A DNA stretch of 64,000 bases from Escherichia coli (GTDB taxonomy: Bacteria; Pseudomonadota; Gammaproteobacteria; Enterobacterales; Enterobacteriaceae), in assembly GCF_030013205.1 (NCBI RefSeq), contig NZ_CP122649.1; one strand, given 5' to 3'. This document shows positions 33,001 to 36,000 of the stretch, piece by piece. The position numbers are program-made. Positions within the stretch are counted from its first letter, which is position 1. Each line of letters opens with the position of its first letter.

Positions 33001-36000
33001 TTGAATACGACGATGTCTGTAGTGAGATCCTGAGTAACTCTGCGGACAGCGCCCAGCCAGGTGGCTATGATCGTGAAGAGTACAAAAGACTGATGGAAGT
33101 TGATGGTCAGGTTTTAATCGCCCGATTTGCACTGGAAAAATTCTGGGATACGCATTTTATTGGGCTTATCAACTATGTATCAGATGAAATAACATCCGGG
33201 CTTTATGAGGTTTATCGCACGTTCAGTGATATAAACATGGCCGGTTATACATTTAGTGAGTATTCATATACGCGTCGTATTACCGACGAACTTAGTTTGC
33301 ATATTTCACTTAAAGAGGACGATTTCGAAGAGCAATTAACCGATTGTTATATGGATGAAACAACGCTGCCGTCTGGCAAGGTGGTTTTACGCCGTAATAA
33401 TGAATCAATTATTGGGATTTATGAAGGATATGCTTCAAAATCTTACTTTCCTATGGTTGCTAATGTTAGAGTCCTTGATACAGATGGTGAAGTTGTTACT
33501 GAACTTTACCAAGGGGTGAATGTATCAGAATTAGCTGGTGGTCGGATTAAAATCCATGACCGTCAGGAATTAATTTCTGAGGTGTTCGCTAACTTACGTG
33601 AATTCATCCCAGCATCAGAGGATAAAATCTTTGATGCGGCATGAGTCCTGAAGGTTGAATTATATATTTTCAGGTTTTTATACTTCTAAGAAGGCACGGT
33701 TATCCGTGCCTTTTTTTTTGCTTTCGTCAAAACTTGCATTGATTTTACAATTTTACAACGTTCTTACTGCCCTATATGTTTTACGGTACTGTACTCTTGG
33801 CACCGTTACATGTAAGCCTTCCATTACCTTCTTCAACCAAACCTAGCCTAATTTACATCCTTCCAGCTGTTTCCTTCTCTGCTTCTTTTACTCGAATGTT
33901 TTGCCCCTTGCTGACGTTTCCGGCAGCACACAGTCCGAATGCTGGAGCCTCCAAATTACTTTTTACTTCTTTTGTTTCGGTTTCGCGAAAATAGGTCTCT
34001 TATCTGAAAAATGGATCGTTAGAGATTTGTATACTGTTTAAAACAAAGGAGTCACTATGCCTGCCACTACAATCCTGAGCAATAACCCTGTGAATTCGGT
34101 CTTCTCTAATGACAATAGCCATTTCACATACCGGCATATTGATTTCAGTATTGAGCTACTGCTTTCTTCAGGAACTGACTCACAACTGGAATATCTGTTT
34201 CTCAAACCGGCGGCTGAAGTAAAGATCGATTTACAGCGCCGTTTAGCTAGTGGGGAACGTTACGTTACAACCGAGAGTTGTGACAATTTTAGCGAAGTTG
34301 ATGGCTGCATGGGACACGATTGCTGAGGACTTTATAACGGCAGGCGTCCGATTTAATACAACACGAGACACTATCACCTAATGATGACTGAATCGTTCTT
34401 TGACTGGGTTGTGTATTGCATCACAGGCGTAATACTGGCATCTGCGTTCCTCGAAGGAAAAAGAACCCGTTTTCCGGCTGCATTTTTTTACGGAAGCATT
34501 GTGCTGCTGGTCGTTTTGATAGTGGCCGGTGCCCTCAACTGGTGGTTCTACCGTTCTAAATTCGGCTCAGTTGTCGTTATTTTTGCCGCGACAACGCTGT
34601 TAATGACCCGATTCAGATTGGTTATTTATGCGTTCAGGTTTCGGACGCTGGTGGCAGATCTCCAATCACATGTAGCCAAGGGATTCAGGATAATCCTTGT
34701 CTTACCCGAAAATGAAGACGAGAAGACCGTTTTGCTTAGCAAATTGTCGAAAGTGATACATTCTGGGACGTTGTTTTATACCCGAACAGCTCTGGGTCCA
34801 TATTCTGGGGATCTCCTGCATGCTCTGGGACAAAAGCACCGAAATGGCGAGGGCTATCTGCTTCTTTGTGAGCAACAACTTCCGGCTCGAACCTGGCTAA
34901 GCACTGTAGAAAACGGTCAACCAGAGAAGTCTATTGCAGTTAATTTTCATTCGATCCCTGATATGGAGTGATACCCCTATGAGCAATACAGATTCACAGA
35001 CCGTACCAGCTGATGCCCTGTGTGAAAACAGTTCTCAGGTGAAAATTCAGCTAAGTCGAAGCGCCTCACGAGCATTGACGACGGCGAAAGAAATTCTTGA
35101 AACCCGAGGGCTGGTATCCGTATCCACTGAAGACCTTGTTCAGGCCTGTCTCGAAGAAAATCAGCCACTCGACCTGGCAAGTATCTATCTTGAGCACCGG
35201 CTAAAACAGAAGGGAACCAGTATCTGTGAATTTTAGTGTTTTCCAACCTATTGGGGAAATTCCGGAATGTGTTTATATAGCTGTAAGTAAAGCACTCTAC
35301 AGGTAAATAATGAAAAGCAAAATTCACTCTTCAGGAACGTCCGGCACGAAACGAGTACTTAAAACGGATATTGCGTTGCCTCTGCTTTGTTGGGTGTTCA
35401 CCAGTCCATTCAGTAACTGGACTGATAAGTTTTTTACCGGCACAGAAGTGCCGGAGGGCTCGCTGCCGGGTCTAGAACAGGCGCCTGAGGCTATCTTCCG
35501 ATTTGTGCTCAATGACGAAGGTTTTGATGTTGGTTTTGACGCGGTGGGAATGGATCTCTGTTGTTTCTCTATCCCGCTTTCGACGATGCCCACAAAGAAT
35601 CTGGACGACGAAGAGACGTTGTCGAGGCTTACCGGCGACGTGATACACGGCGTCCTGCTTTCGCTTCCGGAGTACATTGAAATGCCAGACAGGCTGGTCT
35701 ATCAGCTAACTGATGAGGTCATGGCGTTCAATTCACACTGTGGCAACGGAATTCTACATGGATGGACGACGGCTCAAGAGTTGTGGCGAAACGAGATCCT
35801 GCCACGCACCACTATTTTGATGCAGCAGACATCAGTCATTCACTGAGTTCCGGGGGCTCTGGATGAAAAAGCGACTTTACCTTCTTGAATGGAAACTTCG
35901 TGAGACAAGAGCCTGGTTAGGATGGATGGTGTTCTGGATTATCATCAGTTTTATGTTTTTATCAGCGATGTTCATGACAGGTCATTTGTTAAACAAAGTT

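What the first reader, a model, noticed from the sequence alone, without database searches (positions are those of the whole stretch)
33750..33990. About 240-bp ORF-free tract with strong pyrimidine bias on the top strand
After the 33691 terminator the top strand is almost devoid of purine runs (ccttccattaccttcttcaaccaaacctagcc...ttccttctctgcttcttttactcg) and contains a short direct repeat ttttacaa x2. The two small track ORFs here (33655-33846, 33776-33994) look spurious. Strand-asymmetric polypyrimidine tracts can mark structured non-coding RNAs, H-DNA-forming sequences or ssDNA initiation signals; it also lies in the leader of the Tus-containing operon.
Basis: seen in the sequence. Interest (0 to 1): 0.4.

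Follow-up and report, generated by a model that had tools for sequence, protein, structure and literature searches.

The report
Pyrimidine-rich spacer between plasmid operons
This is a real, non-coding, pyrimidine-rich and almost structure-free stretch of an IncHI1 resistance plasmid that sits between a transcription terminator and the next promoter; it most likely acts as a loading zone for the termination factor Rho, which makes it an ordinary operon boundary rather than a new kind of element.

Summary
The top strand at 33763-33912 is 70% pyrimidine, the most extreme 150-nt stretch in the 64 kb window; none of 300 simulations reaches it. The window is IncHI1 (R27/pMAK1-type) backbone. The tract lies in a 412-bp gap between the last gene of an array of paralogues and an 89-aa gene that heads the cluster containing the Tus homologue.

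The tract is non-coding. Substitutions fall evenly across codon positions, single-base indels break the frames, and the ORFs have never been called as proteins. It is not a structured RNA, an H-DNA tract, an ssi/Frpo hairpin or a Ter site.

The gap reads: intrinsic terminator, then the tract, then a conserved promoter-like block (TATACT at 34030), then the ribosome-binding site. So the tract probably lies upstream of the promoter, not in the leader.

Composition is conserved but sequence is not. The IncHI2 tract is unalignable yet equally C/T-rich and G-poor, while four-fold degenerate sites are unbiased.

By published criteria it is the largest C>G "bubble" on the sense strand. My best reading is a Rho-utilisation zone that backs up the terminator and insulates the next promoter (confidence about 0.4). 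No Rho data exist, the Rho-specific statistics are only marginal, and three related lineages lack the tract. Interest is low.

The parts
32688..33644 (+). Last gene of the array of ~310-aa paralogues, which is the end of the upstream transcription unit. It is R0199/R0194 in R27, where IS2 splits it.
   Evidence: PGAP annotation of pMAK1. Third-position excess of substitutions, 28/25/64. R27 map.
33647..33679 (+). Possible first, weak terminator-like hairpin: CCTGAAGG...TTTTCAGG followed by five T's.
   Evidence: Read directly from the sequence. The scan calls the orthologous hairpin as terminator-like in pCF_324-2, but it does not call this one in the window.
33688..33719 (+). Intrinsic terminator with a 12-bp stem (6 G-C pairs), a 4-nt loop and nine T's.
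   Evidence: The same GGCACGGTT(A/T)TCCGTGCC hairpin plus T-run is present in pCF_324-2 and in IncHI2.
33742..33758 (+). ATTTTACA x2 direct repeat. It is not conserved and is probably slippage or chance.
   Evidence: It is absent from R27 and from the 74% lineage. It has 3 mismatches to the Ter consensus, whose hits in the window are at chance level.
33694..33975 (+). C>G bubble, meaning a zone where C is at least as frequent as G in every 78-nt window (coordinates are window centres). This is the whole pyrimidine-rich, G-poor zone and the proposed Rho-loading (rut-like) region.
   Evidence: 282 nt long, area 3478 %.bp, peak C-G of 29.5%. Rank 1 of 776 bubbles on the + strand. Contains 11 (YC)N9-13 x4 motifs.
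33817..33894 (+). Most extreme 78-nt core of the tract, with 28 C, 5 G and 17-18 YC dimers.
   Evidence: The surrounding stretch 33786-33899 is the only + strand locus in the window that passes RhoTermPredict-style criteria at C/G >= 3.
33909..33928 (+). Small G+C-rich hairpin, TGCTGACGTTTCCGGCAGCA. It is a candidate RNA polymerase pause site downstream of the rut-like core.
   Evidence: It is the stable element in the ssDNA and RNA folds. CGTTTCCGGC is conserved in the 74% lineage. No GG-N8-YG pause consensus was found nearby.
33960..34056 (+). Strongly conserved promoter-proximal block. It includes the palindrome TTTCGCGAAA (33981-33990), the motif AGAGATTTGTATACTGTT (34021-34038) with a -10-like TATACT (34030-34035), and the Shine-Dalgarno AAGGAG (34046-34051).
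   Evidence: 80-100% identity to the 74% lineage, against 65% in the tract. The motif is identical in IncHI2. Photorhabdus has TATAAT at the same position. The motif occurs only once in the window.
34057..34326 (+). 89-aa gene (R0193 of R27 by my mapping). It is the first gene after the gap and heads the co-directional cluster that includes the Tus homologue at 36900-37859.
   Evidence: Third-position excess of 9/8/26. On record from at least 1000 contigs.

Best explanation
The tract is a non-coding spacer between two transcription units of the IncHI plasmid backbone. Selection acts on the composition of its sense strand, not on its sequence.

Proposed mechanism:
1. Any RNA polymerase that reads through the stop codon at 33644 and the intrinsic terminator(s) at 33647-33719 produces an untranslated RNA that is C/U-rich, G-poor and almost free of structure.
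2. That is the substrate the hexameric termination factor Rho loads onto (a rut-type site).
3. Rho would then release the polymerase within roughly the next 50-150 nt, possibly at the 33909-33928 hairpin.
4. Termination would therefore occur before the polymerase reaches the conserved, apparently activator-dependent promoter at about 34030.

The tract would thus be a fail-safe terminator and insulator. It would keep the strongly inducible upstream array from driving, or occluding the promoter of, the downstream cluster that contains Tus.

Shown here: the composition, the lack of structure, the lack of coding, the position between terminator and promoter, and conservation of composition without conservation of sequence.

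Inferred: that the tract is transcribed by read-through, and that Rho acts on it.
For: 1. Composition. The tract is 70% pyrimidine, with C/G of 2.6 overall and 28 C to 5 G in the 78-nt core. It is the largest C>G bubble on the sense strand by both area and height, rank 1 of 776. At C/G >= 3 it is the only + strand locus passing RhoTermPredict-style criteria.

2. Published criteria are met. Nadiras et al. 2018 (PMC6144790) report that every tested template with a bubble longer than 78 bp or an area above 700 %.bp gave Rho-dependent termination in vitro, and that known terminators carry at least one (YC)N9-13 x4 motif. Here the bubble is 282 nt and 3478 %.bp, with 11 such motifs.

3. Lack of structure. 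RNA fold z = +2.1. The cores fold at about -0.07 to -0.09 kcal/mol per nt, against about -0.37 for neighbouring inter-cistronic junctions.

4. Not translated. Substitutions are even across codon positions (13/13/14, 22/23/22, 9/10/10), while flanking genes show 9/8/26, 13/12/50 and 28/25/64. Two 1-nt indels break the frames. The ORF shrinks from 72 to 60 aa in R27. None of the ORFs has ever been deposited as a protein.

5. Composition is maintained rather than inherited. The tract is only 65% identical to the 74% lineage, with transversions balanced at 24 R>Y to 22 Y>R. It is unalignable with IncHI2 (z = -0.2). Bubble areas are nevertheless 3478, 3890 and 3779 %.bp, each the largest in its locus. 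Four-fold degenerate sites (Y = 0.506, C/G = 0.84) and other intergenic DNA (Y = 0.519, C/G = 0.98) on the same strand are unbiased.

6. Position. The tract lies directly behind a conserved intrinsic terminator and ahead of the conserved promoter block.

7. Precedent. [quoted passage not shown]

8. R27 microarray (PMC7366339, with mapping). The upstream flank of the gap has the lowest signal, R0194 at 12|20 (25 C | 37 C). In the htdA mutant the signal rises across the gap from 116 to 1063 to 10360. So transcription of the downstream cluster starts within or after the gap and does not run through it.
Against: - There are no Rho, bicyclomycin or 3'-end data for this locus.
- C>G bubbles are common, at 1.4 per kb on this strand here and about 2.2 per kb in E. 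coli, and they predict poorly on their own.
- Taken alone, the 78-nt C-G peak is reached by 34 of 300 Markov simulations and the bubble area by 23 of 300. Only the overall pyrimidine excess is clearly beyond chance.
- The T-over-A excess (AT skew -0.36) is not required by the rut model.
- The upstream intrinsic terminator looks strong, so a backup may have little to do.
- Three related lineages (two Klebsiella IncHI types and Photorhabdus) have the same terminator-promoter arrangement without the tract, so it is dispensable there.
- No GG-N8-YG pause consensus lies downstream.
- In R27 an IS2 sits between the array and the gap, so the array data cannot measure read-through into the tract. No array probe covers the tract itself.
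Confidence: 0.4

Rival explanations
1. The tract is a functionless spacer. Its bias would be a relic of inserted or decayed DNA, or the product of a local strand-specific mutation bias, and nothing depends on it.
For: The tract is the least conserved part of the gap, at 65% identity. Three related lineages lack it altogether. Its length varies from about 240 nt in IncHI1 to about 110 nt in IncHI2. The Rho-type statistics alone are only marginal, at p of about 0.08-0.11.
Against: Four-fold sites and other intergenic DNA on the same strand are unbiased, so no general mutation bias explains it. The bias sits at compositional equilibrium between lineages that are 35% diverged. It persists in an unalignable IncHI2 tract with nearly the same bubble area. 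The tract has no similarity to any other DNA or protein in the window.
Confidence: 0.25
2. The tract is a long 5' leader of the downstream cluster, transcribed from a promoter just after the terminator (TTTACA-17-TATGTT, 33752-33780). It would regulate the cluster through Rho-dependent attenuation or through its many CCUUC/CUCUU anti-Shine-Dalgarno-like motifs.
For: There are promoter-like hexamers at 33724-33780. The inverted repeat 33968-33977 / 34041-34050 could pair with the Shine-Dalgarno region. The 89-aa gene is silent in wild type and induced 37-fold in the htdA mutant, which fits a controlled leader.
Against: The promoter-like sites are at chance frequency, 3 found against 2.1 expected. 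They are not recovered in pCF_324-2 or IncHI2. The conserved -10-like element lies right next to the ribosome-binding site in every lineage, and it is a perfect TATAAT in Photorhabdus. No stable leader structure is predicted.
Confidence: 0.12
3. The tract acts at the DNA level. It would be an extended upstream region of the promoter, serving as a platform or boundary for plasmid or host DNA-binding proteins (TrhR/TrhY, HtdA, H-NS/Hha) or as a stiff polypurine-polypyrimidine segment.
For: It lies at about -50 to -280 relative to a promoter that has no recognisable -35 element and is therefore probably activator-dependent. The downstream gene is under HtdA control. R27 gene expression is known to depend on H-NS/Hha (PMC7366339).
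Against: There is no conserved sequence motif inside the tract. Its G+C content of 38-44% is not especially A+T-rich for H-NS. A strand-asymmetric composition is not an obvious requirement for proteins that bind duplex DNA.
Confidence: 0.1
4. One of the first reader's options is right: a structured non-coding RNA, an H-DNA-forming tract, a single-strand initiation or Frpo-type signal, an oriT-like site, or a Ter site for the plasmid Tus protein.
For: The strand asymmetry is real. On the bottom strand, the ttttacaa repeat reads CGTTGTAAAATTGTAAAA, which resembles the Ter core GTTGTAAC. The gap also heads the cluster that contains Tus.
Against: Folding z-scores are zero or positive on both strands, for RNA and for DNA. 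Rfam finds nothing. The longest pyrimidine run is 11 nt and there is no homopyrimidine mirror repeat. The repeat has 3 mismatches to GNRNGTTGTAAYKA, and that consensus gives 30 hits against 26 expected. The repeat is absent from R27. It lies 3.1 kb upstream of tus, whereas the autoregulatory TerB abuts tus in E. coli (PMC8707476). The window begins in the Tra2/partition region, and none of the ten upstream ORFs examined is a relaxase.
Confidence: 0.03
5. The tract encodes a small hydrophobic protein (33776-33994, 72 aa) or a 33-aa peptide on the bottom strand.
For: An open frame spans the tract in both IncHI1 and the 74% lineage.
Against: Open frames are expected in purine-poor DNA, because every stop codon needs purines. 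Substitutions are even across codon positions and 1-nt indels shift the frames. The ORF is 72 aa here, 60 aa in R27 and in a different frame in pCF_324-2. There is no Pfam match. None of the ORFs has been called as a protein among about 15 billion deposited sequences, while the neighbouring gene is on at least 1000 contigs.
Confidence: 0.02

Closest known systems
Rho-dependent terminators, i.e. rut sites or 'C>G bubbles' (lambda tR1 and trp t' are examples from my own knowledge; descriptors from Nadiras et al. 2018, PMC6144790, and RhoTermPredict, PMC6407284)
   Same: The sense strand is C-rich and G-poor, rich in YC dimers, unstructured and untranslated over more than 78 nt. The bubble's length and area are far above the values that always gave termination in vitro. 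A small G+C-rich hairpin lies within 150 nt downstream. Like rut sites, the tract is defined by composition rather than by sequence.
   Different: Rho dependence has not been shown. The tract is also strongly T-over-A biased, which the model does not require. It sits behind an apparently strong intrinsic terminator instead of standing alone.
Cooperative intrinsic plus Rho-dependent termination at 3' UTRs (Ahmad et al., bioRxiv 10.1101/2022.07.21.500918)
   Same: An intrinsic terminator is followed by sequence on which Rho can act to suppress read-through into the next unit.
   Different: In that work Rho mainly helped weak intrinsic terminators (stems of about -13 kcal/mol), and the strong rrnB T1 terminator needed no help. 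Here the hairpin has a 12-bp stem and nine T's, so the need for a backup is less obvious.
Frpo and ssi single-strand promoters and initiation signals of plasmid leading regions (Samuel et al. 2024, PMC11541004; listed but not read)
   Same: A non-coding element in a long, co-directional block of plasmid genes of mostly unknown function.
   Different: Those elements depend on extensive single-strand hairpins. This tract is among the least foldable sequences in the window on both strands.
TerB at the tus promoter, which mediates Tus autoregulation in E. coli (PMC8707476)
   Same: A Ter-core-like sequence lies upstream of a gene cluster that contains a Tus homologue.
   Different: It has three mismatches in the conserved core, is not conserved even within IncHI1, lies 3.1 kb and seven genes away from tus, and the consensus hits in the window are at chance level.

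Membership tests
Rho-dependent terminator (rut site) | An uninterrupted C>G bubble of about 80 nt or more on the non-template strand, measured with a 78-nt sliding window | tested here: met
   282 nt, area 3478 %.bp, peak C-G of 29.5%; rank 1 of 776 on the + strand. However, 23 of 300 Markov simulations reach this area.
Rho-dependent terminator (rut site) | At least one (YC)N9-13 x4 motif inside the bubble, i.e. regularly spaced C's | tested here: met
   11 x4 motifs and 4 x6 motifs in 33721-33960. The six-C regex with 11-13 nt spacing is passed with C/G up to 5.6.
Rho-dependent terminator (rut site) | The RNA is largely unstructured | tested here: met
   z = +2.1 for 33785-34060. The cores fold at -13.9, -14.1 and -8.0 kcal/mol in three lineages.
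Rho-dependent terminator (rut site) | The RNA is free of ribosomes (untranslated) | tested here: met
   The tract lies after the stop codon at 33644. There is no coding signature in any frame, and the ORFs have never been called as proteins.
Rho-dependent terminator (rut site) | An RNA polymerase pause site within about 150 nt downstream of the rut site | tested here: inconclusive
   A G+C-rich hairpin is present at 33909-33928, but there is no GG-N8-YG consensus in 33895-34050.
Rho-dependent terminator (rut site) | The region is actually transcribed, and its 3' ends depend on Rho (bicyclomycin or rho mutant) | not testable with these tools
   Only gene-level microarray data for R27 are available (PMC7366339). 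No probe covers the tract, and IS2 lies upstream of the gap in R27.
H-DNA / intramolecular triplex | A homopurine-homopyrimidine mirror repeat of roughly 15 bp or more (threshold from my own knowledge) | tested here: not met
   The longest pure pyrimidine run is 11 nt. The best mirror repeat has a 7-nt arm that contains A.
ssi / Frpo single-strand signals | An extensive, stable single-strand DNA hairpin (in Frpo it mimics a duplex promoter) | tested here: not met
   ssDNA folds give z = +0.96 on the + strand and +1.25 on the - strand; 83 and 90 of 100 shuffles fold at least as well.
Structured non-coding RNA | Folding energy beyond composition, covariation, or a match to a curated family | tested here: not met
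   z-scores are zero or positive on the + strand and only -0.6 to -1.0 on the - strand. Rfam gives only sub-threshold terminator look-alikes at 33589-33747 and nothing at gathering score.
Ter site (Tus binding) | A match to GNRNGTTGTAAYKA, conserved, usually next to tus | tested here: not met
   The repeat has 3 mismatches. The consensus gives 30 hits against 26 expected. The repeat is not conserved. The plasmid Tus may recognise a diverged site, which was not tested.
Protein-coding small ORF | Third-position excess of substitutions, a preserved frame, and homologues | tested here: not met

The most novel reading that the evidence does not exclude
The polypyrimidine character, rather than C>G alone, would be what is selected, and it would act on DNA rather than on RNA. 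One version is an unstructured single-strand landing zone on one plasmid strand for the plasmid's own Toprim-domain primase or for SSB during conjugative entry. Another is a boundary that stops silencing or transcription-coupled processes from spreading between the inducible paralogue array and the Tus-containing cluster. The tract is present only in the three lineages that also carry the paralogue array, and it is absent from the three that do not. That is compatible with a role tied to the array, although the pattern may reflect a single evolutionary event.
Probability: 0.07. Interest if true: 0.5.

Novelty: new member of a known kind. Interest (0 to 1): 0.2.

Why it matters
If the reading is right, it marks a hard transcriptional boundary in the backbone of IncHI1 and IncHI2 plasmids, which are major carriers of multidrug resistance in Salmonella, E. 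coli and Enterobacter. One side is a strongly HtdA/temperature-controlled gene array. The other is the cluster that contains the plasmid's Tus homologue.

It is also a clean small example of an element conserved in composition but not in sequence, which alignment-based annotation would miss.

It does not open a new question. Rho-dependent fail-safe termination is well known, and the claim remains untested for this locus.

Tried and rejected
- Structured RNA: RNA folds of the whole leader-like region and of the tract cores in three lineages, on both strands, show no excess structure. Rfam finds nothing at permissive or gathering thresholds.
- ssi or Frpo signal: ssDNA folds of both strands are no better than shuffles.
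- H-DNA: there is no long pyrimidine run and no mirror repeat.
- Ter site at the ttttacaa repeat: 3 mismatches, consensus hits at chance, repeat not conserved.
- Small proteins on either strand: rejected by the codon-position test, the indels, Pfam and the exact look-up.
- Relic of a paralogue or other window sequence: blastn, tblastx and tblastn of the tract against the rest of the window give only chance-level hits.
- Promoter upstream of the tract: the window's candidates are at chance frequency and absent from the orthologous gaps.
- Bottom-strand (purine-rich) transcript: no promoter-like site on that strand and no structure.
- Search for more lineages: the genome-contig scan with the 89-aa protein alignment returned only one extra locus, in Photorhabdus.
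- Literature: two searches for TSS or RNA-seq data on IncHI1 found only the R27 microarray papers. A search for R27 ORF numbers found nothing useful.
- A correction to my own work: my first mapping of R27 ORF numbers put R0192 at the 89-aa gene. I revised this after finding that the extra ORF in the old annotation is the 75-aa ORF at about 36305-36529. An uncertainty of one ORF remains.
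Full report
**Where the window comes from and where the tract sits**

The window is backbone of an IncHI1 conjugative plasmid. It is 100% identical to pMAK1, pO111_1 and many Salmonella and E. coli plasmids, and 283 PLSDB records match it. It begins in the Tra2/partition region, with ParM, TrbC, TraU and TraN homologues. It continues as a long block of co-directional + strand genes.

The finding lies in the longest unannotated gap of that block, at 33645-34056 (412 bp). Upstream is the last of five paralogous ~310-aa genes, which ends at 33644. Downstream is an 89-aa gene starting at 34057. 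That gene heads a cluster of small genes ending with a Tus homologue (PF05472, 36900-37859) and one further gene.

**Checking the observation**

The description is accurate.
- 33750-33990 is 66% pyrimidine on the top strand, against a window mean of 48%.
- The peak is 70% over 33763-33912, the most pyrimidine-rich 150-nt and 241-nt stretch in the window.
- None of 300 Markov simulations of a 64 kb sequence reaches 0.70.
- The interval has only two purine runs of 4 nt or more, against a mean of 8.7.
- The terminator is at 33688-33719.
- The ATTTTACA x2 repeat is at 33742-33758. It is trivial, and R27 itself and the divergent lineage both lack it.

**Layout of the gap**

I aligned the gap with a lineage that is 74% identical across it (pCF_324-2 and AR375; MOB-suite types them IncHI1B). 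This splits the gap into three zones.
- The terminator hairpin is conserved at 86%. A possible second, weaker hairpin lies just upstream at 33647-33679.
- The pyrimidine tract is the least conserved part, at 65%.
- The last ~100 bp before the ATG are nearly invariant, reaching 100% over 34020-34049, which is more conserved than the flanking coding sequence.

That conserved block holds a palindrome, TTTCGCGAAA, and the motif AGAGATTTGTATACTGTT. The motif is identical in IncHI2, where the 89-aa protein is only about 50% identical.

A chromosomal or integrated relative in Photorhabdus has a perfect TATAAT at the position of the plasmid TATACT, about 22 nt before the ATG. I therefore read TATACT at 34030-34035 as the -10 element. 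No -35 element is recognisable, so the promoter is probably activator-dependent. On this reading the tract lies between a terminator and a promoter, not in the leader.

**What the tract is not**

It is not coding.
- Substitutions between the two lineages fall evenly across codon positions in every candidate frame (13/13/14, 22/23/22, 9/10/10). The three flanking genes show the usual third-position excess (9/8/26, 13/12/50, 28/25/64).
- Two single-base indels break the frames.
- The 72-aa ORF is 60 aa in R27 and sits in a different frame in pCF_324-2.
- There is no Pfam match.
- None of the ORFs exists among about 15 billion deposited proteins, while the neighbouring gene is recorded on at least 1000 contigs.
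- Open frames are expected anyway in purine-poor DNA, because stop codons need purines.

It is not structured.
- As RNA, 33785-34060 folds worse than 199 of 200 shuffles (z = +2.1).
- The tract cores of three lineages fold at only -8 to -14 kcal/mol.
- ssDNA folds of both strands are no better than shuffles.
- Rfam finds nothing.

It is not an H-DNA tract. The longest pyrimidine run is 11 nt and there is no homopyrimidine mirror repeat.

It is not a copy or relic of anything else in the window.

The Ter-like look of the repeat does not survive testing.

**Composition is conserved, sequence is not**

This is the most informative result.
- The 74% lineage keeps the bias (0.66 against 0.70) at 65% identity, with transversions balanced at 24 R>Y to 22 Y>R. 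The bias is therefore at compositional equilibrium rather than decaying.
- The IncHI2 gap is 150 bp shorter, and its tract aligns with the IncHI1 tract no better than chance (z = -0.2). Yet it is 72% pyrimidine, with 36 C and 6 G in 104 nt.
- Four-fold degenerate sites of 20 + strand genes (Y = 0.506, C/G = 0.84) and the other intergenic DNA of the block (Y = 0.519, C/G = 0.98) are unbiased. No general mutational bias explains the tract.
- Three further relatives have the same terminator-promoter arrangement with only 50-90 bp in between and no tract. These are two Klebsiella IncHI types and Photorhabdus. They also lack the paralogue array upstream.

**Most likely function**

A sense strand that is C-rich, G-poor, rich in YC dimers, unstructured and untranslated is the definition of a Rho-utilisation (rut) region.

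I applied the published descriptors: the 78-nt C>G bubble and (YC)N9-13 motifs of Nadiras et al. 2018 (PMC6144790), and the RhoTermPredict criteria (PMC6407284).
- The tract is the largest bubble on the sense strand of the window, at 282 nt, 3478 %.bp and a peak of 29.5%. It ranks 1 of 776.
- It contains 11 x4 motifs.
- At C/G >= 3 it is the only + strand locus that qualifies.
- The orthologous gaps have bubble areas of 3890 and 3779 %.bp, each the largest in its locus. The tract-less lineages have 446, about 0 and 903.
- Nadiras et al. report that every template with a bubble longer than 78 bp or an area above 700 %.bp terminated with Rho in vitro.

I therefore propose that the tract is a fail-safe, Rho-dependent terminator behind the intrinsic terminator. 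It would insulate the downstream promoter. Cooperation of the two termination modes at 3' ends has been shown in E. coli.

**Caveats**
- Bubbles are common and weakly predictive.
- Taken alone, the C-G peak and the bubble area are reached by 34 and 23 of 300 simulations.
- The T-over-A excess is not explained by the Rho model.
- The intrinsic terminator already looks strong.
- No Rho data exist for this locus.

**Experimental context from R27**

The R27 microarray study (PMC7366339) provides signals for the flanking genes.

R27 carries the same locus in the opposite orientation, and an IS2 splits the last paralogue. I mapped the old ORF numbers by counting from hha (R0182) to insD (R0195). The one extra ORF of the old annotation is a 75-aa ORF at about 36305-36529, not an ORF in the tract. 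This gives R0194 as the upstream flank of the gap, R0193 as the 89-aa gene and R0192 as the 196-aa gene. An error of one ORF is possible.

| ORF | Position | Wild type (25 C / 37 C) | htdA mutant, 25 C |
|---|---|---|---|
| Upstream array | paralogues | low | 2740-6669 (38-115-fold up) |
| R0194 | upstream flank of the gap | 12 / 20 | 116 |
| R0193 | 89-aa gene | 29 / 39 | 1063 |
| R0192 | 196-aa gene | 1380 / 1215 | 10360 |

The signal rises across the gap and does not run through it. Transcription of the downstream cluster therefore starts in or after the gap, as expected for a boundary with its own regulated promoter. Because of the IS2, and because no probe covers the tract, these data cannot test read-through or Rho.

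**Verdict**

The best explanation is a composition-selected rut-like insulator, with confidence of about 0.4. The main rival is a functionless spacer, at about 0.25.

It would be a new member of a known kind, and its interest is low.

**Side observation**

Eight of nine short junctions in the upstream gene array fold into two adjacent stable hairpins, and the second hairpin sequesters the next gene's Shine-Dalgarno sequence (z from -2.2 to -5.5). The same architecture is present in IncHI2 (z of -3.9 and -4.7). No Rfam family matches it. This looks more interesting than the tract itself and deserves its own analysis.

Noticed in passing
window 22817-22890, 24015-24095, 26105-26179, 28544-28624, 29500-29573, 30506-30586, 31504-31579, 32600-32691; also L007 575-650 and 1665-1760: Nearly every short (70-80 nt) junction between genes of the upstream array folds as RNA into two adjacent stable hairpins (MFE -26 to -32 kcal/mol, z -2.2 to -5.5). 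The first is G+C-rich (CCCA..GGGG / CCCC..TGGG). The 3' arm of the second contains the next gene's Shine-Dalgarno sequence. Primary sequence is only about 45% identical among copies, but the architecture is kept, also in IncHI2 (z -3.9 and -4.7). At 31504-31579 an alternative pairing between the two hairpins could free the Shine-Dalgarno sequence. There is no Rfam match. It may be a translational-coupling or switch element specific to this array.
   Followed up: partly
window 33960-34056: The promoter-proximal block is more conserved than the flanking genes. It contains a perfect palindrome, TTTCGCGAAA (33981-33990), an imperfect dyad, GGTCTCT...AGAGATT (about 33993-34027), and AGAGATTTGTATACTGTT, which is identical in IncHI1 and IncHI2. 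No -35 element is recognisable. It is probably the operator or activator site of an HtdA/TrhR-TrhY-controlled promoter.
   Followed up: partly
window 34057-34400 (R0193/R0192 of R27): In the R27 microarray (PMC7366339) the 89-aa gene is 'not expressed' in wild type (29|39). The next gene, 54 bp downstream, and the rest of the cluster are constitutively expressed (about 600-3000). This suggests a second, constitutive promoter inside or just after the 89-aa gene. The ORF mapping is uncertain by one position.
   Followed up: partly
window 34264-34286: Inside the 89-aa gene there are two opposed Ter-core-like octamers, GTTACAAC-cgaga-GTTGTGAC. One is an exact GTTGTAAC on the bottom strand. The other has 2 mismatches to the 14-nt Ter consensus. 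Chance is not excluded, since the consensus hits in the window are at background level.
   Followed up: no
window 28621-33644: Five tandem paralogous genes of about 290-320 aa with no Pfam match. They are present in IncHI1, the 74% lineage and IncHI2, but absent from the Klebsiella IncHI types and from Photorhabdus. In R27 they are silent in wild type and derepressed 50-115-fold in an htdA mutant at 25 C.
   Followed up: partly
window 34057-34326; alignment A3: The 89-aa protein family has an invariant C-terminal Cys/His pattern (C..F...GC.GH(D/Q)), which suggests a small metal-binding domain. It has no Pfam family.
   Followed up: no
L012 (R27) 16238-18530; L004 about 2940-3020: There are mobile-element scars around the gap. 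IS2 splits the last paralogue in R27, a few hundred bp upstream of the gap. In a K. michiganensis plasmid, IS26 has replaced everything upstream of a point equivalent to about window 33940, leaving only the conserved promoter block attached to the downstream cluster.
   Followed up: no
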